Made by a program: the position numbers and the translations under genes | Notes under the pieces: model-generated | The model's input: the letters and a program-made list of their open reading frames with translations, nothing else | The model's database searches: none | What the model was told of the DNA's origin: nothing | Shown here: positions 2,193-62,261 of the stretch, piece by piece | Layout of the letters: every line of letters starts with the position of its first letter | Position numbering within the stretch: the stretch's first letter is position 1 | Source of the DNA: a phage | Sequence record: PX667085.1 | Direction: 5' to 3' (one strand) | DNA: 64,000 bases

Positions 2193-2561
2193 ATGAAGGT
2201 ATTAAACTTTTACCATTTAGGCAAAACAATCCCAGAAGGTGCTGTTTATATTGGTAGAGCAATGCCACACATGGAATTAAAAGCCTCTAAGTTTGCAAAC
2301 CCTTTTAAGTTAAAAGATGATGAACCACGAGGATCAACTATACAAAGGTATAAAGAGTGGTTGTGGGAGCAAATTCGTTGTGGTAAGATCACTCTTGAAG
2401 ATTTATTAGAGTTAGAAGGGAAAGATTTAGTTTGCTTCTGCTCCCCTCAACCTTGTCATGGAGATGTATTGGTAGCAGCCGTGACTTGGGCTAGAAAAGA
2501 GTGGGACAAAAGGCATCCTACTTATGTAGACAATTATTGGATTTGGGAGGAGAATTTTTGA
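2193..2561 (+). CDS. DUF4326-like protein
   Basis: Motifs GRAMP, SKFANPF and CFCSPQPCHGDVL resemble the DUF4326 family common in phages (from memory). Confidence 0.45.
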   Translation: MKVLNFYHLGKTIPEGAVYIGRAMPHMELKASKFANPFKLKDDEPRGSTIQRYKEWLWEQIRCGKITLEDLLELEGKDLVCFCSPQPCHGDVLVAAVTWARKEWDKRHPTYVDNYWIWEENF

Positions 2562-2917
2562 AAAATATTATTGATGTAGATGTGTTTGGTATCACAGCAC
2601 TACAAGACAAACAAGCAACATTATACTACCATAAAAAAGAGGATAAGGCTTACATCTACATCTACCTAGGAGCAGAAAAATTTGGTGTTGGAGATATGGC
2701 TCTAAATGTAGAAGGGGATCTTCCTTTAGAACAAAAGTTGAAAGTTTTTCGTTTCACAAGAGATGTTAAACTAGACGGCGTTATCGCAATCCTACAAGAA
2801 GACCATTATTATATGGTAACTTTCGTTACTCCTGCTTTCTCTGGTCTTAATGGAGAAGAAGCTCTTAACGATGTTATTATCTTAAAGATTGGTAATGCTT
2901 TAAACGATGTAAACTAA
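2558..2917 (+). CDS. hypothetical protein (probable TTG start)
   Basis: GGGAGGAG lies 6 nt before the in-frame TTG at 2558; the track ATG at 2501 would overlap the previous gene by 61 nt. Confidence 0.4.
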   Translation: MKNIIDVDVFGITALQDKQATLYYHKKEDKAYIYIYLGAEKFGVGDMALNVEGDLPLEQKLKVFRFTRDVKLDGVIAILQEDHYYMVTFVTPAFSGLNGEEALNDVIILKIGNALNDVN

Positions 2918-2931
2918 AGGAGGGAGTGTGT

Positions 2932-3441
2932 ATGTTCTTTGATGCAAATTCTCTTTTTGTATCTACAGCAGGGCAGTCTGCTGTTAATGCAGAATTTGAG
3001 GAAAGAGAAGAATGGATTGATAATCACAACTATGATCCAAGTAATCTAAACTGGTGCAGTTTGGATGTTGGTAATCTTAGTAGAGATAATGCACTTAGAG
3101 CATACTACTCTGTATATACTGTTGACAATCTTTATCAATACTACGTGTTTCGTAGTCTTATTGTTAATCTTAATTTAGCTGGACGTTTAAAGAACAATAA
3201 GGCATTCACATTGGGACATTATATTCCCTTCCGTAAAGGTGGTGTGCATTTTCCATGTAATTGGATCATTCAAACACGAAAAGAAAACAGTTTAGCAGGA
3301 GACACCATGCCAAGATTTAAAGATAAGTGGACATGGGAAAAACAAATGGGGTACATTAATGCACATTTGCCACCTAATCTAAAAGAACCTTATGCCAGCA
3401 GAGCTAAGGAAATGATGAGGATTGTCAAGAGTTTTTATTAA
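2932..3441 (+). CDS. hypothetical protein
   Basis: AAGGAGGG ribosome binding site then ATG at 2932 (track begins at GTG 2926). Confidence 0.55.
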   Translation: MFFDANSLFVSTAGQSAVNAEFEEREEWIDNHNYDPSNLNWCSLDVGNLSRDNALRAYYSVYTVDNLYQYYVFRSLIVNLNLAGRLKNNKAFTLGHYIPFRKGGVHFPCNWIIQTRKENSLAGDTMPRFKDKWTWEKQMGYINAHLPPNLKEPYASRAKEMMRIVKSFY

Positions 3442-17186: not shown

Positions 17187-17359
17187 TGAAAATATTACGA
17201 GTGAATATTGAAACTGCTTGGTGTGGATGCAATGAGGTTGTGGATATCGAAATTGAAGATGATATGTCTCAAGAGGATATAGAAGATCTTGCACACGAAA
17301 CCTTTCAGGATTATTGTAATTACGGGTTCCATATTTTAGAGGAGGAAGAAGATGTATAA
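17186..17359 (+). CDS. small acidic hypothetical protein (57 aa, absent from ORF track)
   Basis: ATG overlaps upstream stop (TAATG); GGAGGAGGAG ribosome binding site; 3-prime end overlaps next start. Confidence 0.35.
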   Translation: MKILRVNIETAWCGCNEVVDIEIEDDMSQEDIEDLAHETFQDYCNYGFHILEEEEDV

Positions 17360-17750
17360 TCCAACAGGTATTCTTTTAAAACTTACAGTAACAGACCCTA
17401 CTCTTTTCACTAAGTTAGCAAGTGGTGAAGTTTATGAAGTAATGAAAGATGGTGACGGTTGGTGTTATCTTTGTGGCTACTTCCTCTGTGATGCAGAAGA
17501 GTTAGAGTCCATTGTAACTAAAGGTTTTTATGAAGAACCAGGGTTCCGTGTGGAAACTACGCAGAAACCTGATACCATTACGCTGACTCGACAGGAACTG
17601 ATCACAATCATTGAAGATGCTTTTATTGATGGCTGGAATACACAAGATAATGACTGGGGTGGACCCGAAGCTTTTCTGGAACATCATAAAGCTTATGGAG
17701 AATTTTGTGAAACCACTGTAGCTCTTGATAATCTGAAGGAGGGTTTGTAA
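17352..17750 (+). CDS. hypothetical protein (132 aa)
   Basis: GAGGAGG ribosome binding site. Confidence 0.55.
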   Translation: MYNPTGILLKLTVTDPTLFTKLASGEVYEVMKDGDGWCYLCGYFLCDAEELESIVTKGFYEEPGFRVETTQKPDTITLTRQELITIIEDAFIDGWNTQDNDWGGPEAFLEHHKAYGEFCETTVALDNLKEGL

Positions 17751-47748: not shown

Positions 47749-49902
47749 CTATATATAAAATTTTTGTGTTGTTACTAAATCTTCTCCAGATTTAGTGGCT
47801 AATGTAATTCCACTTATGGTGGCAATCTCAACATTTACCTGTTTAAGAGTGATATCCTGTAAATAAACGTTCAAAGGCACGTTACCCATATAGAAAACTT
47901 GGGATTGAGAATTAACTACCGTGATAGAATCGTGCATTATTTGAGGATAGGCCCATATATATTGTGTAAGTCCATTGAACTTATTGGCGTTCAACACTAT
48001 GTTACCTATAATCATCTTCCAAAGATATGTGCGGTAGTTTGATTCAGGATCAAAGCCATACAAAGGTGCAAGAGTAGCATCTGGAACAAAACCTGCAAGA
48101 TAGTGAATATCAGAATATTCAAAACCTAATTTTTCATGTGGTATGGTAATTGCATCAAATGCTTTCATCATTTTACCTTCCAGAAGCCAGTCGTAACACT
48201 CCGAACAGTAAAAATCAAAAGCTTCAGGAATGTAGTAATCAGACGGAAAGTTAACTTTCTCCATCAACCCGTTGCCAATAATTGATGGTAAGAATGGAAG
48301 CAATGTTACTTTAGCTCCTGGATAAGTTGCTCTAGTATCTGTTGCAAACTTTGTAACTCTTAACCCTAGTTTACGAGACAAAAATGCATAGTATTCGTCA
48401 AATGGCGTTCCTGTTTTATAATTATCTATTGTTCCTGCATCTTGTGCAAATAAGCCTGTTTCTGTATTGAATGCCAGTTTGGTAGTGTAATCATATATAC
48501 AAGGCATTTTACTTGCTGTATTATACCACCACCAAGGTTCACCAATTTGAATGACGACTGGAATATTGTTAGCTTGAGAAATAGATGCTATTTTGTTAAT
48601 AACATTTTGCAAATATTCCATACCTTCATCAATTGTTGGAGATAACACATAACTAGGCGGCTCATAACCTGTTGCTGCAAGAGCATCGTTCCAATCATGT
48701 TGAACCCATTCTACAGGACAAACTGTGCTCATCAACTCAAAACTCAAAGAGTTCATTATTGTGTAGCCATTTTCATTAGCTATAGAATGGAAACTGTTAA
48801 GCCAAGCTTCTGTAGCCGGATTCAGGAAAACAGATCTATTCAAAGCCCAAGATGTTCCGTTCCATGAGAACTCATAATAGTGAGACATTCCGTTGTAATG
48901 GTTAATCATTCCACGATAACCTAGTGCATATGTATTATAAATAACTCTCTCTGGAGTCAGGTTATACATATCATCATAAGATGTGCACATGCGAATATCA
49001 TGTTCAGGCTGGACAAGGTTGCTGACTTTCATCATACTGTAACCAGAAGTAGGTTCAAGAAGAGTGAAAGTAAACCAAGCCTCTTGACTGGCAATAGGCA
49101 CAATCTCTTCTATTTCTTCATACCTTGCTGTAATCAAAGAGAAGAAAATATTATCTACAGCACTCATATCCAAAGGAATATCATTATTAGGGCCAGAAAA
49201 GATATTACCAAAATCTAACTTGATTGTGGCTGTTTTACCATCTTCTGAAATATCTGAAGCGTAGAATCCTAAACTGACATAATGAACACTTTTATCCAAG
49301 AGAGTTACAGTCAAAGTCGGCACCAAAGGTTCTTCTTTAAAACCTGGCATGTTTTGACTAATTTCCATTTTAAACCAAAGTTTCTCTGAACTTAAATCTG
49401 TGTGGGGTAAATACCCAACACCTTTGTGATCATATTTGTCAACTGTGCTCCAGATAACCCCTGCCAAACCTGCTGTTGTTCTGTTTACAAATCTTGCAGT
49501 AAAAGAGTCTCCATGAGATACAATAGAACAACTTTCCGTTGCTTGAGAATCTATTGTCCAATACATAGGAGAGAACATTTTAACGTCTTTTGTAGTCCAA
49601 GTTATTGGAGTAGTATTTTCTTGGATAGTAGTTATAATACAATTGATGGTTGTTTCAACCATCATGTTATTTTGACTAATCCCTGAAACTTGGAGGGAGA
49701 AGTTAAGATCTATTGAGTTCTTTGGTCGTTCAAATACTTCAACCACAATAGTAGCAGAATCAGCATCATCAGGGAACACAAGTGTTCCCGATTTTGCAAT
49801 ATAATCTCTACCAGCGACTGCTGTTCCATCAACAGTCGTGTAGTTAAATGAACTCGCATTTACTCTCTTGTCTCGCGTGACAGTAAATATAGCTTGTTTC
49901 AT
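47749..49902 (-). CDS. virion structural protein (717 aa)
   Basis: Large ORF tightly packed in the tail operon. Confidence 0.5.
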   Translation of the reverse strand: MKQAIFTVTRDKRVNASSFNYTTVDGTAVAGRDYIAKSGTLVFPDDADSATIVVEVFERPKNSIDLNFSLQVSGISQNNMMVETTINCIITTIQENTTPITWTTKDVKMFSPMYWTIDSQATESCSIVSHGDSFTARFVNRTTAGLAGVIWSTVDKYDHKGVGYLPHTDLSSEKLWFKMEISQNMPGFKEEPLVPTLTVTLLDKSVHYVSLGFYASDISEDGKTATIKLDFGNIFSGPNNDIPLDMSAVDNIFFSLITARYEEIEEIVPIASQEAWFTFTLLEPTSGYSMMKVSNLVQPEHDIRMCTSYDDMYNLTPERVIYNTYALGYRGMINHYNGMSHYYEFSWNGTSWALNRSVFLNPATEAWLNSFHSIANENGYTIMNSLSFELMSTVCPVEWVQHDWNDALAATGYEPPSYVLSPTIDEGMEYLQNVINKIASISQANNIPVVIQIGEPWWWYNTASKMPCIYDYTTKLAFNTETGLFAQDAGTIDNYKTGTPFDEYYAFLSRKLGLRVTKFATDTRATYPGAKVTLLPFLPSIIGNGLMEKVNFPSDYYIPEAFDFYCSECYDWLLEGKMMKAFDAITIPHEKLGFEYSDIHYLAGFVPDATLAPLYGFDPESNYRTYLWKMIIGNIVLNANKFNGLTQYIWAYPQIMHDSITVVNSQSQVFYMGNVPLNVYLQDITLKQVNVEIATISGITLATKSGEDLVTTQKFYI

Positions 49903-56057: not shown

Positions 56058-56759
56058 TTAACCTCCGTTGTTTGTTGGGGTATTAGTAGCTTCAGCAGTT
56101 CTTACTGTAATATCTGACTTAGGACCATTCGAAGCAACTTGACCTTTCACATCACCACCAGTCGATTTATTTGGTGCTGTTTTTACAGCAATAGCATTAG
56201 TAGTGGCCTTAGAAACGAGACGGATTTGTTCAAACTCTAAATCAAATTGCATAGCAAATTCAGATTTATAATCATAAGAGTAGCCTTTGAGAATAACATT
56301 TTCAAAAGTCCTGTGTTCTGTCAAAAGAACTATTGGTTGTCTTGACTCAAATATTTGATCTAGATATTCTATTGCTTGAGAAATCCTTGCCCCATTTACA
56401 CCTGCACTGTATAATTGATCTCGCATAAGCCGAATTGGTGTTTCGGTAATTATACCTGAAAGTTTAAATCTGTTGTTTTTTATTTGAACGTGGTCACTTA
56501 CATCCGATCCTGATTCTACTGGAAAACTTGTAACATCTGCCTCACGAGTTACACCTACTTCAGGGACCGAATCGAAAGTAATTGCTTTAAAGTTTTGAAT
56601 GTATTGATCACTTGAACTATTATAAACACTTGCTAAAATGCAGAAACCATTATCACCCTTTACAGTAGATGCCGAGGTATTTTTATTCTCGGTAGAGTTG
56701 ATTTCCTGTTCTGCCTTATAGACGGCTCTCACCGACTGTTGTGGAGTCATTGCTGCCAT
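56058..56759 (-). CDS. tail/baseplate protein (233 aa)
   Basis: First gene after an internal promoter; GAGG ribosome binding site. Confidence 0.5.
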   Translation of the reverse strand: MAAMTPQQSVRAVYKAEQEINSTENKNTSASTVKGDNGFCILASVYNSSSDQYIQNFKAITFDSVPEVGVTREADVTSFPVESGSDVSDHVQIKNNRFKLSGIITETPIRLMRDQLYSAGVNGARISQAIEYLDQIFESRQPIVLLTEHRTFENVILKGYSYDYKSEFAMQFDLEFEQIRLVSKATTNAIAVKTAPNKSTGGDVKGQVASNGPKSDITVRTAEATNTPTNNGG

Positions 56760-56789: not shown

Positions 56790-56808
56790 GGAAGATGCAA
56801 GATCTTCC
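56790..56808 (-). promoter_or_regulatory. hairpin in 5-prime UTR of the 56058-56759 transcript
   Basis: ggaagat/atcttcc 7 bp stem between promoter and ribosome binding site. Confidence 0.35.
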
Positions 56809-56818
56809 CATATTGATT

Positions 56819-56848
56819 ATTGTAACACATATAGAAACTTCGTGTCAA
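56819..56848 (-). promoter_or_regulatory. sigma70-like promoter with extended -10 (TTGACA, 18 nt spacer, TGtTACAAT)
   Basis: Reverse complement reads TTGACA...TGTTACAAT. Confidence 0.55.
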
Positions 56849-56850
56849 GG

Positions 56851-56878
56851 GAAACGAAAAAACCCCGCCGAAGCGAGG
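56851..56878 (-). terminator. rho-independent terminator (minus strand)
   Basis: ccucgc-UUCG-gcgggg hairpin (one G-U pair) followed by U6. Confidence 0.6.
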
Positions 56879-56885
56879 TATTTTA

Positions 56886-58874
56886 TTAACCACCAGTGTT
56901 AGATTGTCCACTTAGAGTTGAAAGAGATAAACGTTGGAAAATGCTATTTCCGCTATTTTGAATTCTTGCATCAAGAATATTTCCAAACTCGGAAGAAGGA
57001 CTGATCGTAACTTTGATAAGATCACTTGGTATTGCTACCGTATTCTCAACAACAGGTTGATTACGAGCCAAACTTACGTTAGGTGTATAGGCTGATTCAC
57101 GTAAATCTTCAAGAGGATTACCAAATCCAAAAGCACGTGTCCTTGTTTGTTCTCCTCTCCACATACGACCAATATCTTGTGTATCAATACCTGTTAAATT
57201 GTACAACCAATCTGCTACAGGATTGCTGTCTCCACTTTGCGTTGCCTCGTATGCTTTTTGTGCCATAGATTTATTAGGATCTGTGTTGTCTCCGAATGTA
57301 TCTGGGAATGTTTCTTTAAGCCAATTGGTAAAAGATCCGAAACCATCTCCCAATTCTTTAGCAAAACCTCCTAATTGAACTGTTGTCTTACCGAGTTCTT
57401 CACCTAAATCTTTGGCAAACTGATCTAGCACTTTAACGTTATCCAACCAAGAATCATCTTTAGGTAACGCTTTCACAAAACCCTCTAAGAAGTGGTTCTG
57501 CATACCTTGACCTACAAGCTGAACTGTTGCAGCAAAACGAGTAAACTCCTTAGAAGCATCTATTTGTTCTTGAGTTAATGTTGCACCTGTTCTTTGAAGC
57601 ATTTTCAATACTTCATTGTATCCTTCGCCGTTTTTACTAAACATTCGTTGGTAGTGCATAAGGTCGTCACCAAGGTTTTCAAGAAGTCGCCCGATTTGAG
57701 CAGAGTTCATACCTCGACGTTCACCTTCATTAACAGTAGCCTGAATAAAAGCTAAAGGATCGTTCTGTAAAGGTTTAAGCTGTTCTGGATTCCATCCAAA
57801 CAAGTTCATAATGTCATTTATGCCATTATCACCGCCTTTCCACTTCCCTTCTTTCTCATTCCATTTTGAGGCTAAAACTGTATTACCAAGACGTTCACGA
57901 ACGTCTTTAATATTATCTATTGACTTAATAATATTTGCAGAGTCTACACCGTTCTGTTCACCCCAAGCTGTCATTGCCAAAATAGCGTTGGCGTTTGTCT
58001 GAACGTTTTCAGCACCACGACTTACAAGTTTAATTCTTTCGTTAGTATTCATCAACGTGTTACCAACTACAGAACCACCTGCAAACAGCCCAGCACCTAT
58101 TAAAGAGGATGCAATCATGCGTGGATTAAGACCTGCTGCACCTTCTTTTAATTGTCCATATCGACGATCACGATCACGTTTTTGTTGAGCTAATTCACGC
58201 TTACGGTTGCGTTCTATATCTCTAAGTTCACGATTTCGCATACGTATACGCATTTTAGCTTCTGCTTCTAGCTCTCTACGAATACGGCGACGACCGCGAA
58301 CCTCGTCTTCTATTTCAGCATTCTTTTCACGATGAGATCTGCGTAAGGCATCTAACTGGTGAGCAAGAGCTTGGTTCATACGTTGAAGAGTTATTTCACC
58401 CTTTTTGTATTGCTCTACAGCTTTACCCATAACGTCTCTAGCTTCTTGCATAGCGCCAGGACTAGCTTTACTAAATGCTCTTGCTCGATAGTTAAAGTTC
58501 TGCAAACGAAGATTACCTAAATCTTCCCTACGTGCTGCTGCTTTAGCTTCGCGTTCAGCAGCTTTACGAGCTTTTTCTTCTTCTCTTCCTTGCGGGGTTT
58601 TAGGAGTTCTAGGTCTACCAGATCCGCCTACAGGAGCACCCGCTCCAGCGGGAGTAGGTGCTCGCATAGGTTTTTGACTTTGAGTTTGAGCTTTCTTAAG
58701 TTCACGCTCAATCTCTTTCATTTGTTGTCTAAACTTGGTCATGTTCATAGTGGGTTGCATTTTATTTGCAAACTTCTGAACACTCAACACGGCATCTTTT
58801 GCTTCCTTGAGACTGTTCTTGTCCACCTTAAACGTAACCACGTTACTAATTTTGGAGGCGTTAATTTCTAACAA
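56886..58874 (-). CDS. tail tape measure protein
   Basis: 662 aa, charged coiled-coil N-terminus, Gly-rich centre; directly downstream of the frameshifted chaperone. Confidence 0.6.
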   Translation of the reverse strand: MLEINASKISNVVTFKVDKNSLKEAKDAVLSVQKFANKMQPTMNMTKFRQQMKEIERELKKAQTQSQKPMRAPTPAGAGAPVGGSGRPRTPKTPQGREEEKARKAAEREAKAAARREDLGNLRLQNFNYRARAFSKASPGAMQEARDVMGKAVEQYKKGEITLQRMNQALAHQLDALRRSHREKNAEIEDEVRGRRRIRRELEAEAKMRIRMRNRELRDIERNRKRELAQQKRDRDRRYGQLKEGAAGLNPRMIASSLIGAGLFAGGSVVGNTLMNTNERIKLVSRGAENVQTNANAILAMTAWGEQNGVDSANIIKSIDNIKDVRERLGNTVLASKWNEKEGKWKGGDNGINDIMNLFGWNPEQLKPLQNDPLAFIQATVNEGERRGMNSAQIGRLLENLGDDLMHYQRMFSKNGEGYNEVLKMLQRTGATLTQEQIDASKEFTRFAATVQLVGQGMQNHFLEGFVKALPKDDSWLDNVKVLDQFAKDLGEELGKTTVQLGGFAKELGDGFGSFTNWLKETFPDTFGDNTDPNKSMAQKAYEATQSGDSNPVADWLYNLTGIDTQDIGRMWRGEQTRTRAFGFGNPLEDLRESAYTPNVSLARNQPVVENTVAIPSDLIKVTISPSSEFGNILDARIQNSGNSIFQRLSLSTLSGQSNTGG

Positions 58875-58894
58875 AGTATGTTCCTCGTGTTGGA

Positions 58895-59113
58895 TTAAAC
58901 AAGTTTCTTAAACAAATCTGACATTTTATTTGTCTGGTTTTGATGTTTTCTCTTTATTGAAGTGTCTTTAACATACATGGCTTCAACATACTCTTCGTAT
59001 GTTAAATACTCATATAGTTTTAAAAGATAATCTACACCGTAGTTATCCAATGTTTTCAGTGTTTCCGAGGTATCTTTAACGACTTTGCAAAGAATAACCT
59101 CATACCACTTCAA
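58895..59113 (-). CDS. tail assembly chaperone frameshift extension (T-like)
   Basis: Its frame stays open upstream into the 3-prime end of the chaperone gene in the -1 frame. Confidence 0.5.
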   Translation of the reverse strand: MKWYEVILCKVVKDTSETLKTLDNYGVDYLLKLYEYLTYEEYVEAMYVKDTSIKRKHQNQTNKMSDLFKKLV

Positions 59114-59160
59114 AGTAAGGGTTTTCGTTGCTATGTCGATAGCATGTTCAATCGCAGGTG

Positions 59161-59643
59161 TTAATTTGCTGCTAAACTCGTCATCGCCTGAAGCTGTGTG
59201 AACAGTTTTCCGAAACCTCGTTTGAAAAAAGGGCCGTAGTTTACCTCCAGAACTTTAGCAGTAAGATCTAACACTAGTTCTGGGTGAGCCATAAATAATT
59301 CATCAAAATTTTCTGCAACGTTATAACCGTCTTGAGTATAAACCTCATCTAAAATTTTACGCAAAAAGACAGTTAAATTCTTTTCTTCCAAACCTGCAAA
59401 AAGTTGGATCAATGCCATAGCAATACGTGACTCAAGGTCTTCGTCTGCGGACATTGTTGCTGTGCTATACATAGTCATAGGAACAACCAGAACACTACCT
59501 AATTCTGGAATCCTGTCAAACACTTTAGATGGACTCCACTTCATAATACGGAAAGTAACAGATCTGTTTCCATCTAACGGAATCTCAACTACTTCTTCTG
59601 GTCGAGCATATTTTTGAATTGTGTTATCTTGTTCTTGTGACAT
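59161..59643 (-). CDS. tail assembly chaperone (G-like)
   Basis: 160 aa acidic protein between tube and tape measure; GAGAGGAAAA ribosome binding site. Confidence 0.55.
   Translation of the reverse strand: MSQEQDNTIQKYARPEEVVEIPLDGNRSVTFRIMKWSPSKVFDRIPELGSVLVVPMTMYSTATMSADEDLESRIAMALIQLFAGLEEKNLTVFLRKILDEVYTQDGYNVAENFDELFMAHPELVLDLTAKVLEVNYGPFFKRGFGKLFTQLQAMTSLAAN
59223..59229 (-). other. candidate -1 programmed ribosomal frameshift slippery site (T TTT TTC)
   Basis: Heptamer in the chaperone zero frame (cct ttt ttc); the -1 frame from here is open to 58895. Confidence 0.45.
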
Positions 59644-59650
59644 ATTTTCC

Positions 59651-59683
59651 TCTCTAATGATAAAAAGGGCATTTCTGCCCTTT
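59651..59683 (-). terminator. rho-independent terminator after tube gene
   Basis: aaagggc/gcccttt hairpin; typical attenuator after a major structural gene. Confidence 0.55.
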
Positions 59684-59688
59684 ATTTA

Positions 59689-60168
59689 TTATTGAATTGT
59701 CAGAGCAGAGATTGAGTTAAGGGTGCTCAAACCTACACCAACTTCATTACGCAGAAGGCTTGCATCTTTAAGACCAATAACCCATTGGTTCTCTGTAATC
59801 ATTTCGCCAATAGTATCTTCAGGCTGACTTTGAATCCATCCAATCGTGCTAATGTAATAGCCACGTGGGTCTTCTAAATAAACACTGAACGCTACTTGAC
59901 GAGTAGAATACATTGTTTGTGCATATGTTGCAAGTACTTCGTTAGCTGGAGATGTGCGTTGCAAAGACATTGTGAGTGTTCCCAAACGGTTACGACTCAA
60001 AGCTAGTGAAACGTCGCCATCAGTCCCTGCATAAGGGTTGATAATATCGTTAGATTTAGCAATAACGATTTTAGTATCAGCCGCAAAACCCCACGGTTCC
60101 CAACCACCTAATGAAAGGATAACTTGAGATGGGTCGTAGGCCATTACGCCAGTAAGCATTTTATCCAT
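59689..60168 (-). CDS. tail tube protein
   Basis: 159 aa ORF immediately downstream of sheath gene. Confidence 0.55.
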   Translation of the reverse strand: MDKMLTGVMAYDPSQVILSLGGWEPWGFAADTKIVIAKSNDIINPYAGTDGDVSLALSRNRLGTLTMSLQRTSPANEVLATYAQTMYSTRQVAFSVYLEDPRGYYISTIGWIQSQPEDTIGEMITENQWVIGLKDASLLRNEVGVGLSTLNSISALTIQ

Positions 60169-60175
60169 TATAGAT

Positions 60176-60209
60176 CCTCTTTATTTTGATAACGGGGGCT
60201 TAACCCCCG
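60176..60209 (-). terminator. hairpin, putative terminator after sheath gene
   Basis: cggggg/cccccg stem followed by an A/U-rich tract. Confidence 0.5.
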
Positions 60210-60214
60210 CCGTA

Positions 60215-61588
60215 TTAGTTTGCAGTACGGTTAGTCAGGACGTTGACCTGAACTTTAACGTAATGGAAGAAGCCAGCGTAAACATATTCAATCTTCATCC
60301 CATCGACCAGACGAGCATTGATTTGCGCATCAGTCATATCGGCACGAGAAGGAATATAAACAATAGGTTTCAGATCGACACGCAAACCAGTCTCTTCAGA
60401 AGTAACAACTTCATTAGCGATGGAACCGTTGAGGATACCTACTTGGATCGGGTTAGCCAGAACAGCTTGTCGAATCAAAGCCAGACCGTTTGAAGTAGCA
60501 CGAACACCACCACCCAGCATAGACTGTTGTTTAAACAGTGTAAACAGTGATTCTTCTGTGCGAGCTTTAAACCACAAAGCATGAACAACATAGTCAACAA
60601 AGAAACCGCTAACCATCAATCCATCACGATAGAACAGAGTTCCATGCTCTTTACGATAGATGTTACCGTTCTGTTGAACAATATTGTTTTCCGAAGTCTG
60701 ATCCAGTTTCTCGATCTCTACACCTACCAGTGTTTTACCGTGAAGAGTAGTTAAACCAGGTTGACGAGAACAGATTGCACCAACAACTGCCGCTTCTGGG
60801 AATACAGAATCTGCATCGGTCATCCACAAAGCAAAGCAAGTGTTATTATAACCGAGGTCATTCAGTCGTTCCAGAACGTTATCTTCTGCTTTCGTTTTAA
60901 TTCCAGGTTCAGAGCTAGAGAAGAAGTAAACTTTATCATTCTCTTCTACCCATGCAGCCAAAGCTAGAACATCTTCTGTTTCATGGGAATCTGAAAGGGT
61001 CCAGAACCAGCTACTATCGATATCATGCAGAGCAGCAATATCTTCCGTAATAGCATTAGCATAGACAGTTTCTTGAGTGAAACCTGTGCTGTCAATAGAA
61101 CCAAACTTACCTTCTACTGGAGTGAAAGTCATTGCAGCGCCGTTGTTAGCTACTGTAAACAGTGGGCCATAAACAAGATCTGCATTGATCATTTCAGTCA
61201 GACCAACTACAATCTCTTGTGCAGTTGCAGTGTCATCAGCAATGAATTTAAATTCTTTTTTCTTGGTACCATTTTTGATGGTAATTGTGTAAGTTGCACT
61301 ATCTTCTACGATTGGAGTTAGAGTAAAGTTTGTAACTTCACGCTTACCAACCATGACTTGATCTGGTGGGAACAAACCGTTAAACAGTTTGACTGCCATA
61401 ATATACGCTGGATCATTTAATCCATAACCTGCTTCCAAAAGTGCATCGGAAGAAGAGTAATATTGAATCGCTTCGCCAGTTACGTTCTGACCTGTAAGGA
61501 TCAGGGGAATATCGAACTGGGTTTCACGAATTGATGTAGCACCATACAGTAAAGTTACGGTTGCTACCTTTTCACGAAAAGTTGCCAT
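60215..61588 (-). CDS. tail sheath protein
   Basis: 457 aa ORF preceding tube, chaperone and tape measure; AGGAGC ribosome binding site. Confidence 0.55.
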   Translation of the reverse strand: MATFREKVATVTLLYGATSIRETQFDIPLILTGQNVTGEAIQYYSSSDALLEAGYGLNDPAYIMAVKLFNGLFPPDQVMVGKREVTNFTLTPIVEDSATYTITIKNGTKKKEFKFIADDTATAQEIVVGLTEMINADLVYGPLFTVANNGAAMTFTPVEGKFGSIDSTGFTQETVYANAITEDIAALHDIDSSWFWTLSDSHETEDVLALAAWVEENDKVYFFSSSEPGIKTKAEDNVLERLNDLGYNNTCFALWMTDADSVFPEAAVVGAICSRQPGLTTLHGKTLVGVEIEKLDQTSENNIVQQNGNIYRKEHGTLFYRDGLMVSGFFVDYVVHALWFKARTEESLFTLFKQQSMLGGGVRATSNGLALIRQAVLANPIQVGILNGSIANEVVTSEETGLRVDLKPIVYIPSRADMTDAQINARLVDGMKIEYVYAGFFHYVKVQVNVLTNRTAN

Positions 61589-61622
61589 TTATGCTCCTGT
61601 TAGAAACTTAATTCCAATGAGT

Positions 61623-62261
61623 TTATTCGGTAGGGTTGTTAAATAATGATCCATTTTGATTGACTGACGAGTATTCGCCTGGAACCAAAGTAATTGCATA
61701 AACCCTGTTTAGAATTAAATCTAAAGGGATAGGATCATTGTAACTATCTCTGAATGAACGGATGTGCATGTTGATTGCTTCTATTGGTGTAGTAGCAATA
61801 TCTTCAATACTCATACGAGTGTTGAACGTCATAACCATACGCGCTCTTAATTCAGTCTTATCTCCGTCTACAATTGTATTGGCTTGAGCTATATTGGAGG
61901 CTCCTAAAAAACCAAGACCTTTAGAATAGAGATGTTTGTATTTTAATTCCTCTGCACCACGGAGAGCAGCCAGAACATAGCTCATCAAAGTGGTAGGTCT
62001 TCCACGATAGGCTACAAGTTCAATCTCGTAGGTATTATCCATCTCGTAGGAATACATATCATTTTGAATAGAGCTTCGGTAAGACCAACCTCCAGAATCG
62101 CTGGAAGTGATAATACGTAGTGCTAGGTAAGGAGTATCCGGTTTAATGAATGGCTTATCCATAACATAGACTGGCAACCCCACTAATTCTTGAAGGAAGC
62201 CACCTATATTTAAGTAGATGGCATTTTCGTATGCTTCTATTTGTTGGTAAATATTAGCCAA
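61623..62261 (-). CDS. neck/tail completion protein (tentative)
   Basis: In-frame TTG preceded by AAGGAGG 5 nt upstream suggests start at 62261 rather than the track ATG at 62282. Confidence 0.45.
   Translation of the reverse strand: MANIYQQIEAYENAIYLNIGGFLQELVGLPVYVMDKPFIKPDTPYLALRIITSSDSGGWSYRSSIQNDMYSYEMDNTYEIELVAYRGRPTTLMSYVLAALRGAEELKYKHLYSKGLGFLGASNIAQANTIVDGDKTELRARMVMTFNTRMSIEDIATTPIEAINMHIRSFRDSYNDPIPLDLILNRVYAITLVPGEYSSVNQNGSLFNNPTE

What the first reader, a model, noticed from the sequence alone, without database searches (positions are those of the whole stretch)
58895..59643. Candidate -1 programmed frameshift in the tail assembly chaperone gene
Between tube and tape measure, the 160 aa chaperone ORF contains T TTT TTC near its 3-prime end. 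The -1 frame from that point is open through the next ORF to 58895, reproducing the conserved G/GT arrangement of tailed phages.
Basis: partly seen in the sequence, partly recalled or inferred. Interest (0 to 1): 0.5.

Follow-up and report, generated by a model that had tools for sequence, protein, structure and literature searches.

The report
Tail chaperone frameshift, unannotated here
The tail-assembly chaperone gene of this phAPEC8-like E. coli phage very probably uses the classic -1 ribosomal frameshift of long-tailed phages to make a short and a long protein; public records of these phages miss it, but it is an ordinary, expected feature.

Summary
On the minus strand, the 160-aa chaperone ORF (59643-59161) carries C_CCT_TTT_TTC at codons 138-140 (59233-59224). 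That is two overlapping in-phase slippery heptamers. The -1 frame opens 7 codons before it and runs to the stop at 58897-58895, 20 nt before the tape-measure start. The predicted products are G (160 aa, 18.2 kDa) and GT (249 aa, 28.8 kDa).

The window is a Phapecoctavirus, 99.9% identical to phage Mt1B1_P17. All 28 distinct relatives examined keep T_TTT_TTC, or T_TTT_TTG in three GC-rich lineages. They span Stephanstirmvirinae, Vequintavirinae and deep metagenomic lineages, down to about 25% protein identity. All also keep a 103-141-codon -1 ORF.

The -1 product is conserved as protein, and that conservation starts upstream of any usable start codon. I found no downstream stimulatory structure. 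An SD-like GGAGG lies 13 nt upstream and is largely conserved; it is a plausible dnaX-type stimulator, which is inference.

Felix O1-like phage Moogle has the same GGAGG-13 nt-TTTTTTC cassette annotated as a joined CDS. A 2025 paper proposes the same frameshift in related families.

Verdict: a real but unannotated new member of a well-known kind. Interest is low to moderate.

The parts
59161..59643 (-). G: short form of the tail assembly chaperone, 160 aa, 18.2 kDa, produced by standard decoding
59224..59233 (-). Slippery run C_CCT_TTT_TTC: two overlapping in-phase heptamers, C_CCT_TTT (59233-59227) and T_TTT_TTC (59230-59224)
   Evidence: Among 28 distinct relatives, codon -1 is always CCT or TGT, F1 is always TTT, and F2 is TTC (25) or TTG (3), whereas the neighbouring Tyr, Gly and Leu codons vary. 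U_UU.C is the second most shift-prone tetramer in E. coli (PMC4066793).
59244..59248 (-). SD-like GGAGG inside codons L-E-V, 13 nt 5' of T_TTT_TTC and 10 nt 5' of C_CCT_TTT; a candidate upstream stimulator (inferred)
   Evidence: It is the strongest anti-SD match in the whole G gene in 17 of 24 representative relatives, at the same offset (duplex about -10 to -15 kcal/mol). The Glu codon is GAG in 23 of 23 sequences, although GAG makes up 28% of Glu codons in this window. GGAGG or GAGGTG occurs only once per 1243 nt in ORFs. The same GGAGG-13 nt-TTTTTTC is present in phage Moogle.
58895..59224 (-). T: the -1 frame extension, read from CAA at 59224-59222 to TAA at 58897-58895. It adds 109 aa and gives GT = 249 aa, 28.8 kDa; coordinates complement(join(58895..59224,59224..59643))
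   Evidence: It is conserved as protein: window T against Murica T gives blastp 2e-12, with the alignment. Differences by codon position 1/2/3 are 1563/1120/2417 in the T-only part.
58895..59113 (-). The 72-aa 'hypothetical protein' ORF with a TTG start, as annotated in RefSeq and GenBank; here read as the C-terminal part of T and not a separate gene
   Evidence: Annotation. The TTG has no SD (anti-SD dG -0.1). Start codons in the T frame are not conserved, and in several relatives the first lies 60-85 codons after the heptamer. Conservation extends upstream of the TTG.
59689..60168 (-). Tail tube gene, upstream neighbour (context)
   Evidence: phrog_280, Pfam KPP10_Orf10. Annotated as tail tube in SKA64 and 05F01. 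It follows the sheath gene 61588-60215.
56886..58874 (-). Tape measure protein gene, downstream neighbour (context). It starts 20 nt after the T stop.
   Evidence: phrog_16051 'tail length tape measure protein'; annotations.
59664..59683 (-). Terminator-like hairpin between the tube and chaperone genes (context: it probably lowers expression of G/GT/TMP relative to the tube)
   Evidence: sequence.

Best explanation
This is a programmed -1 ribosomal frameshift of the lambda G/GT type in the tail assembly chaperone gene of a Phapecoctavirus.

Most ribosomes read 59643-59161 to the stop and make G (160 aa). A minority slip on C_CCT_TTT_TTC. With tRNA-Phe (and tRNA-Pro/Phe) in the P and A sites, they move back one base onto CCC_UUU_UUU. 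They then continue in the -1 frame from CAA (59224) to TAA (58895), making GT (249 aa).

The shift falls exactly at the end of the folded G domain. It replaces a 20-residue, low-confidence tail with a conserved 109-residue T domain.

By analogy with lambda (inference, not tested), many G copies plus a few GT copies coat the tape measure protein. The T domain then recruits the tube protein so that the tail polymerises to the right length, and neither protein ends up in the virion.

The shift is probably assisted by an internal Shine-Dalgarno-like GGAGG 13 nt upstream that pairs with 16S rRNA, as in dnaX. It is not assisted by any downstream RNA structure.
For: Shown by sequence and computation:
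- The in-phase heptamers and the 119-codon open -1 frame are present. Chance is about 2.5e-6.
- The gene is a TAC by Pfam and PHROG and by position between tube and TMP. The fold is TAC-like.
- The heptamer is kept in phase in phiWec179, alia, 05F01, Murica, Hena1 and Mydo and in all 41 IMG/VR loci. That is 28 distinct site sequences, including 3 GC-rich lineages that keep C_CCT_TTT_TTG against their own codon bias.
- In every one of them the -1 ORF starts shortly before the heptamer and ends just before the TMP gene.
- T is conserved as protein.
- The T frame has no conserved start codon or SD.
- T homologues in 1.84 billion representative proteins are only short ORF calls with ragged N-termini. 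Some begin exactly at the FF of the slip site. None is an in-frame fusion.
- The upstream GGAGG is conserved, with forced GAG codon choice.
- Phage Moogle has the identical cassette annotated as a joined CDS, and its G is homologous.

From the literature:
- The same frameshift is proposed for the related Vandenendeviridae and Andersonviridae (PMC12846349).
- The lambda mechanism and its wide conservation are reviewed in PMC5009743.
- UUC and UUU are shift-prone in E. coli (PMC4066793).
Against: - There is no direct evidence for the GT protein or for its amount; everything is comparative.
- There is no downstream stimulatory structure. The window's 84 nt fold no better than shuffles (z = +0.94). 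Alignment folds give -1 and -3 kcal/mol with no compensatory pairs. Efficiency may therefore be low.
- The SD-like element overlaps conserved residues L-E-V. It is weak or displaced in some Vequintavirinae (Hena1-, PVP-SE1- and Mydo-like), so its role is not proven.
- The conserved FF residues themselves partly explain the T run.
Confidence: 0.9

Rival explanations
1. Transcriptional slippage. RNA polymerase adds one extra U while copying the T6 run, so a fraction of mRNAs carry G and T in one frame. The protein product would be identical (…GPFFQTRF…).
For: The conserved element is a homopolymer run (T6) in all 28 sequences, and there is no downstream structure. The PRFect paper cites Vladimirov et al. 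2022 for T4-like phages making the two TAC forms by other means than frameshifting.
Against: Six residues are short for efficient slippage, which from general knowledge usually needs about 8-9 or more. The run never lengthens in any lineage. It is always in the X_XXY_YYZ phase and followed by C or G, as tandem tRNA re-pairing requires. An SD-like sequence at the dnaX-type distance is conserved, and that matters only to a ribosome.
Confidence: 0.06
2. Two independent genes, as in the RefSeq annotation. The 72-aa ORF (59113-58895) is translated from its own TTG, and the open -1 frame upstream of it is fortuitous.
For: RefSeq and several GenBank records annotate it as a separate hypothetical protein. 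PHROGs has a family for it, phrog_16039.
Against: The TTG has no SD (dG -0.1), and start positions in the T frame differ between relatives. In L008, L009, L018 and L026 the first start codon comes only 60-85 codons after the heptamer, downstream of much of the conserved domain. Protein conservation continues upstream of the TTG to the slip site. Other annotators call no gene there at all. The -1 frame is open back to the heptamer in 28 of 28 sequences.
Confidence: 0.03
3. No function: a chance slippery-looking run caused by a conserved Phe-Phe, next to a decaying or non-coding stretch.
For: FF is part of the invariant protein motif NYG(P/C)FF, which alone favours T-rich codons.
Against: The synonymous choices CCT/TGT and TTT never vary, against expected frequencies of about 50-67% each. 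The -1 ORF shows a 3>1>2 codon-position substitution pattern and blastp 2e-12 between subfamilies. P(open frame) is about 2.5e-6.
Confidence: 0.01

Closest known systems
Citrobacter phage Moogle (Felix O1-like, Mooglevirus) 'tape measure chaperone' pair, annotated as a joined CDS (KM236239, AIW03804/AIW03805)
   Same: The cassette is identical: GGAGG, a 13-nt spacer, then in-phase T_TTT_TTC within the motif LE(A/V)N(F/Y)G-x-FF. The -1 ORF runs to the tape-measure start, and the gene order is tube, chaperone, TMP. Its G aligns to the C-terminal half of this family (hhalign 95%, E 4e-8).
   Different: Moogle G is shorter (133 aa) and only its C-terminal half aligns. The T parts are not significantly similar (E 0.029). 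The frameshift is annotated in Moogle but in none of the nine Stephanstirmvirinae/Vequintavirinae records inspected.
The -1 PRF proposed for the TAC locus of Vandenendeviridae (Pakpunavirus Adele) and Andersonviridae (PMC12846349, 2025)
   Same: It has the same logic: TAC-N/TAC-NC, a poly-T slippery motif near the 3' end of TAC-N, and a downstream 'hypothetical protein' that is really the C-terminal domain. That paper states these families share an ancestral virion module with Vequintavirinae and Stephanstirmvirinae.
   Different: That study analysed only Vandenendeviridae and Andersonviridae and gave the motif as GTTTTT. Here the run is preceded by CCC, not G, in Stephanstirmvirinae. The paper does not mention an upstream SD-like element in the passages read.
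Phage lambda G/GT (Levin et al. 1993; Xu et al. 2004, 2013, 2014, as reviewed in PMC5009743)
   Same: The position is between the major tail and tape measure genes. The -1 shift lies near the 3' end of G, the T domain exists only as a fusion, and no downstream structure is needed.
   Different: From general knowledge, the lambda heptamer is G_GGA_AAG (tRNA-Lys), not a poly-U run. Lambda is a siphovirus and this phage has a contractile tail. There is no detectable sequence similarity. The G:GT ratio (30:1 in lambda) is unknown here.
Phage P2 E/E+E' (contractile-tailed)
   Same: It is a myovirus tail chaperone pair made by a -1 shift. From general knowledge the P2 site is T_TTT_TTG, the variant seen here in the three GC-rich lineages.
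   Different: It is a different protein family. The review states P2-type efficiency is 2-3 times that of lambda; efficiency here is unknown.
E. coli dnaX -1 frameshift (gamma/tau)
   Same: An internal SD-like sequence lies about 10-14 nt upstream of the slippery heptamer (Larsen et al. 1994, cited in PMC4066793).
   Different: From general knowledge, dnaX also has a strong downstream hairpin and the heptamer A_AAA_AAG, and its shifted product is the shorter one. No hairpin is present here.

Membership tests
Tail assembly chaperone G/GT -1 programmed frameshift of long-tailed phages (Xu, Hendrix & Duda 2004) | Gene pair located between the major tail/tube gene and the tape measure gene | tested here: met
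   The order is sheath 61588-60215, tube 60168-59689, G 59643-59161, T to 58895, TMP 58874-56886.
Tail assembly chaperone G/GT -1 programmed frameshift of long-tailed phages (Xu, Hendrix & Duda 2004) | Downstream ORF in the -1 frame, overlapping the 3' end of G, without its own initiation signals | tested here: met
   The overlap is 30 codons. The only upstream start candidate, TTG 59113, has no SD. Starts are not conserved in relatives.
Tail assembly chaperone G/GT -1 programmed frameshift of long-tailed phages (Xu, Hendrix & Duda 2004) | In-phase X_XXY_YYZ slippery heptamer inside the overlap | tested here: met
   C_CCT_TTT and T_TTT_TTC at 59233-59224.
Tail assembly chaperone G/GT -1 programmed frameshift of long-tailed phages (Xu, Hendrix & Duda 2004) | Arrangement and heptamer conserved in divergent relatives, with the -1 product evolving as protein | tested here: met
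   28 of 28 distinct sequences, down to about 25% identity. T blastp 2e-12 and a 3>1>2 substitution pattern.
Tail assembly chaperone G/GT -1 programmed frameshift of long-tailed phages (Xu, Hendrix & Duda 2004) | Both G and the GT fusion are made, in a fixed ratio, and both are required for tail assembly | not testable with these tools
   This needs mass spectrometry or western blots of infected cells, plus genetics.
Pfam PF21822 Phage_TAC_15 | Score above the curated gathering threshold | tested here: met
   84.3 bits against a cut-off of 22; residues 29-143 cover profile positions 3-125 of 127. All 41 database homologues carry PF21822.
TAC fold (e.g. HK97 tail assembly chaperone, PDB 2ob9) | Structural similarity of the G domain to solved TACs | tested here: inconclusive
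dnaX-type SD-stimulated -1 frameshift | SD-like sequence about 10-14 nt 5' of the heptamer that pairs with the 16S 3' end | tested here: met
   GGAGG at 59248-59244, with a 13-nt spacer (10 nt to the first heptamer). Duplex -10.7 kcal/mol. It is the strongest such site in the gene in 17 of 24 relatives. The stimulatory function itself was not tested.
dnaX-type SD-stimulated -1 frameshift | Downstream stem-loop stimulator | tested here: not met
   z = +0.94 against shuffles. Consensus folds give -1.05 and -3.13 kcal/mol with no compensatory pairs.
Transcriptional slippage sites | Long homopolymer run (usually about 8-9 nt or more; general knowledge) | tested here: not met
   The run is exactly T6 in all 28 sequences.

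The most novel reading that the evidence does not exclude
The frameshift signal may be an ancient composite cassette: an internal Shine-Dalgarno-like GGAGG/GAGGUG at a fixed 13 nt upstream of U_UUU_UUC, with no downstream structure. It would have been kept since before the split of Stephanstirmvirinae, Vequintavirinae and Felix O1-like Andersonviridae. This would make the group a natural example of a purely SD-stimulated, dnaX-like tail-chaperone frameshift. The ratio of G to GT would then be set by rRNA pairing, and synonymous covariation (CTG GAG GTN against CTT/CTA GAG GTG) would maintain that pairing.
Probability: 0.4. Interest if true: 0.4.

Novelty: new member of a known kind. Interest (0 to 1): 0.27.

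Why it matters
The main value is for annotation. All nine Stephanstirmvirinae and Vequintavirinae records inspected either call the T part a separate 'hypothetical protein' or leave it unannotated. These include RefSeq entries for phages being developed for therapy. They therefore miss a protein (GT, 249 aa) that is probably essential for tail assembly.

The comparative set also shows that one specific signal (poly-U heptamer plus upstream SD-like sequence) persists across at least three family-level lineages. That gives a clean, host-tractable (E. coli) system for asking how a chaperone ratio is set without a downstream RNA structure. It does not change any concept: G/GT frameshifting is expected in nearly all long-tailed phages.

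Tried and rejected
- Downstream stimulatory hairpin or pseudoknot: none found. The window's 84 nt fold worse than shuffles. RNAalifold on 10 Stephanstirmvirinae-like and 8 Vequintavirinae sequences gave negligible energy and no covariation. The conserved block GGTTTCG is explained by the two overlapping reading frames.
- Natural in-frame G-T fusions, which would prove that the two parts work as one protein: none among the 41 close homologues or among the 14 T-domain relatives in 1.84 billion representatives.
- A 3956-aa hit (P0043) is a repetitive E/T/P-rich protein and a compositional artefact.
- Solved structures by sequence for G and T: nothing significant.
- Literature on a frameshift in phAPEC8, rV5, Phapecoctavirus or Vequintavirus: nothing found. 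The rV5 genome/proteome paper mentions neither frameshift nor chaperone.
- Independent initiation at the annotated TTG: rejected.
- Other in-phase heptamers with long -1 frames in the window (ORFs 2501-2917 and 17352-17750): ordinary neighbouring genes in the -1 frame.
- Vladimirov et al. 2022 could not be read because it is not held.

Full report
**What the window is.** The region 56800-61700 is 99.9% identical to Escherichia phage Mt1B1_P17 and 99.2% identical to phAPEC8. Both belong to genus Phapecoctavirus, subfamily Stephanstirmvirinae, which are ~150-kb myoviruses. All genes of interest lie on the minus strand.

| Gene | Coordinates | Evidence |
|---|---|---|
| Sheath | 61588-60215 | phrog_205, DUF3383 |
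| Tube | 60168-59689 | phrog_280, KPP10_Orf10 |
| 160-aa chaperone | 59643-59161 | Pfam Phage_TAC_15, 84 bits vs cut-off 22; phrog_3840 |
| 72-aa ORF | 59113-58895 | phrog_16039, unknown function |
| Tape measure | 58874-56886 | phrog_16051 |
| Dit-like, plug and hub genes | downstream | |

**Checking the observation.** The minus-strand sequence reads ...CTG GAG GTA AAC TAC GGC CCT TTT TTC AAA CGA....
- With the ATG at 59643, P138-F139-F140 are CCT TTT TTC (59232-59224).
- T_TTT_TTC (59230-59224) is therefore in the X_XXY_YYZ phase. It overlaps a second in-phase heptamer, C_CCT_TTT (59233-59227). A shift at either gives the same peptide.
- The -1 frame has a stop at 59257-59255. It is then open for 119 codons to TAA at 58897-58895. 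The +1 frame is open for only 7 codons.
- The products would be G (160 aa, 18.2 kDa) and GT (249 aa, 28.8 kDa...VLEVNYGPFF|QTRFRKTV...).
- Stops occur at 0.103 per codon in the -1 frame of this window's long ORFs, so 119 open codons has P of about 2.5e-6.
- 81 in-phase heptamers occur in ORFs of at least 120 aa. Besides the two overlapping ones in this gene, only two others are followed by at least 60 open -1 codons. Both sit 2-5 codons before the stop of a gene whose neighbour lies in the -1 frame.

**Is the -1 ORF expressed only by shifting?**
- The ORF as listed starts at a TTG (59113) with no Shine-Dalgarno sequence (anti-SD duplex -0.1 kcal/mol).
- In relatives, start codons in this frame fall at inconsistent positions. 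In several (L008, L009, L018, L026) the first ATG/GTG/TTG is 60-85 codons after the heptamer, downstream of much of the conserved domain.
- Protein conservation runs upstream of the TTG, through the stretch LTPAIEHAIDIATKT, to the slip site.
- Annotators disagree. The stretch is a 'hypothetical protein' in Mt1B1_P17, WPEC4, phiWec179, 05F01, Murica and Mydo (where only a 132-nt ORF, locus 1312-1443, is called). Nothing is annotated there in SKA64, alia or Hena1. None of these nine records annotates a join.

**Comparative test.** A tblastn search with the conceptual fusion found two-piece, two-frame matches in many lineages: Phapecoctavirus (98%), phiWec179 (74%), Justusliebigvirus (67%), Klebsiella phage 05F01 (52%) and Vequintavirinae such as Murica, Hena1 and Mydo (~31%).
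- In each fetched locus the T_TTT_TTC heptamer is in phase. The -1 frame opens a few codons before it and ends just before the tape measure gene.
- A scan of IMG/VR gave 41 loci. All show the same arrangement, with -1 ORFs of 103-141 codons. Three GC-rich, deep-branching metagenomic lineages carry C_CCT_TTT_TTG in the motif NYAPFL.
- Across 28 distinct site sequences, codon -1 is always CCT or TGT, F1 is always TTT, and F2 is TTC (25) or TTG (3). The neighbouring Leu, Tyr and Gly codons vary freely. Background usage in this window is CCT 50%, TGT 67%, TTT 58%.
- One search pattern included the residues NYG-P/C-F. That biases the sample towards the motif but not towards particular codons.
- The T part is conserved as protein. 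Window T against Murica T gives blastp 2e-12 at 26% identity.
- In the T-only region, differences by codon position 1/2/3 are 1563/1120/2417. Between the window and phiWec179, 27 synonymous and 26 non-synonymous codon changes occur.
- A HMMER search of 1.84 billion representatives with the 119-aa -1 stretch found 14 hits, 13 of them short ORF calls (55-107 aa) with ragged N-termini. Three start exactly at the slip site (MALFQTRF..., MFFQERF...). None is an in-frame fusion. The 14th is a compositional hit.

**Stimulatory elements.**
The 84 nt after the heptamer fold at -12.5 kcal/mol against -15.2 for shuffles (z = +0.94).
- Consensus folds of two clades give -1.05 and -3.13 kcal/mol with no compensatory pairs.
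- Upstream there is GGAGG at 59248-59244, inside the codons CTG GAG GTA. It lies 13 nt from T_TTT_TTC and 10 nt from C_CCT_TTT.
- This is the distance range at which an internal SD stimulates the dnaX -1 shift (Larsen et al. 1994, as cited in PMC4066793; the numerical range is from my own knowledge).
- It is the strongest anti-SD match in the whole G gene in 17 of 24 representative relatives, always at the same offset.
- The Glu codon is GAG in 23 of 23 sequences that have Glu there, although GAG makes up only 28% of Glu codons in the window.
- GGAGG or GAGGTG occurs once per 1243 nt inside ORFs.
- When the Leu codon does not end in G, the Val codon is GTG in 9 of 10 cases, giving GAGGTG.
- The element is weak (GGAGA) in Hena1- and PVP-SE1-like phages. 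It is displaced about 9 nt upstream in Mydo-like phages.

I rate the stimulator role as plausible inference, not shown.

**Slipperiness of the site.** In E. coli, U_UU.C is the second most shift-prone tetramer after A_AA.G. All-pyrimidine heptamers with UUN in the A site are among the more shift-prone (PMC4066793).

**Structure.** An AlphaFold2 model of G (22-sequence alignment, pLDDT 74, pTM 0.68) has a folded domain ending at about residue 141. pLDDT is below 50 for residues 142-160. The shift at F139/F140 therefore falls at the domain boundary and swaps a disordered 20-residue tail for the T domain.

These are consistent with a TAC fold but modest. No PDB relative is detectable by sequence.

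**What is already known.** The lambda G/GT frameshift and its conservation in long-tailed phages are textbook. G and the G part of GT bind the tape measure protein. T binds the major tail protein. The ratio is about 30:1, and efficiency is higher in P2 (PMC5009743).
- A December 2025 paper on Pakpunavirus Adele proposes a conserved -1 PRF with a GTTTTT motif in the TAC locus of Vandenendeviridae (56 alleles) and Andersonviridae (231 genomes). It notes that the downstream ORF is routinely mis-annotated. It states that these families share an ancestral virion module with Vequintavirinae and Stephanstirmvirinae, but it did not analyse the latter two for the frameshift.
- The GenBank record of the Felix O1-like phage Moogle (2015) annotates a joined 'tape measure chaperone' CDS.
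- Moogle's site is ttGGAGGcaaacttcggaag-TTTTTTC. That is the same GGAGG, the same 13-nt spacer and the same heptamer, in the motif ALEANFGSFF.
- Moogle G aligns to the C-terminal half of the present family (hhalign 95%, E 4e-8). The T parts are not significantly similar.
- I found no paper reporting the frameshift for phAPEC8-, rV5- or Phapecoctavirus-type phages in the held library.

**Rivals.**
- *Transcriptional slippage on the T6 run* would give the same protein. The run is short, never lengthens, is always in the tandem-slippage phase, and is accompanied by a ribosome-specific SD-like element. I give it about 6%.
- *Independent initiation of the 72-aa ORF* is contradicted by the start-codon and conservation data. 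I give it about 3%.
- *Chance* is effectively excluded.

**Verdict.** This is a -1 programmed ribosomal frameshift of the G/GT kind, with confidence about 0.9. It is missing from all nine Stephanstirmvirinae and Vequintavirinae records inspected. Mechanistically it is the same as an annotated case in Felix O1-like phages and as the recently proposed cases in related families. It is a new member of a known kind.

The only mildly novel angle is the deeply conserved SD-like element at dnaX-type spacing combined with the absence of any downstream structure. Interest is 0.27.

Noticed in passing
window 59664-59683 (-) and 56862-56879 (-), promoter-like 56819-56848 (-): Terminator-like hairpins lie between the tube and chaperone genes and just after the tape measure gene. 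The second is followed by an 11/12 sigma-70-like promoter. The G/GT/TMP block therefore looks like a separately attenuated expression unit.
   Followed up: partly
L007 1425-1454; L008, L009, L040 just after the T stop: In Vequintavirinae relatives a strong terminator-like hairpin sits between the T stop and the tape measure start, and is annotated as a terminator in Murica. The window's phage has only a 20-nt gap with an SD there.
   Followed up: no
L051 (Citrobacter phage Moogle KM236239) 48626-49263: Moogle carries the identical GGAGG-13 nt-TTTTTTC cassette and is annotated with a joined CDS. The signal therefore seems older than the split between Felix O1-like phages and the Stephanstirmvirinae/Vequintavirinae.
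   Followed up: partly
window 2501-2917 (+) and 17352-17750 (+): In-phase heptamers TTTAAAC and GGGTTTG sit 2-5 codons before the stops of these ORFs, with long open -1 frames. The downstream genes simply lie in the -1 frame; for 2501-2917 the neighbour ORF 2926-3441 starts after the upstream stop. These are most likely ordinary.
   Followed up: partly
public records MG065646-MG065677 ('Campylobacter phage'), OP562383 ('Acinetobacter phage vB_AbaM_ABPW7'), MH252123 ('Klebsiella phage ZCKP1'): Records labelled with non-Escherichia hosts are nearly identical in this region to E. coli rV5-like or phAPEC8-like phages. The host labels or the isolates' purity look doubtful.
   Followed up: no
window 56058-56759 (-): RefSeq-style annotation calls this 233-aa protein 'tail fiber protein'. 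It matches Pfam Dit_like (9e-27), and SKA64 calls it a tail tube initiator. This is a probable name error propagated from PHROG 817.
   Followed up: no
L003 (phage WPEC4) 3441-5315: WPEC4's tape measure gene is annotated with a start 114 nt downstream of the TTG used in other records. An extra 147-nt ORF is also called at its 3' end.
   Followed up: no
protein P0043 (3956 aa): A giant repetitive E/T/P-rich protein matches the T query in 18 stretches (E 1e-18). This looks like a compositional or repeat artefact and not homology.
   Followed up: partly
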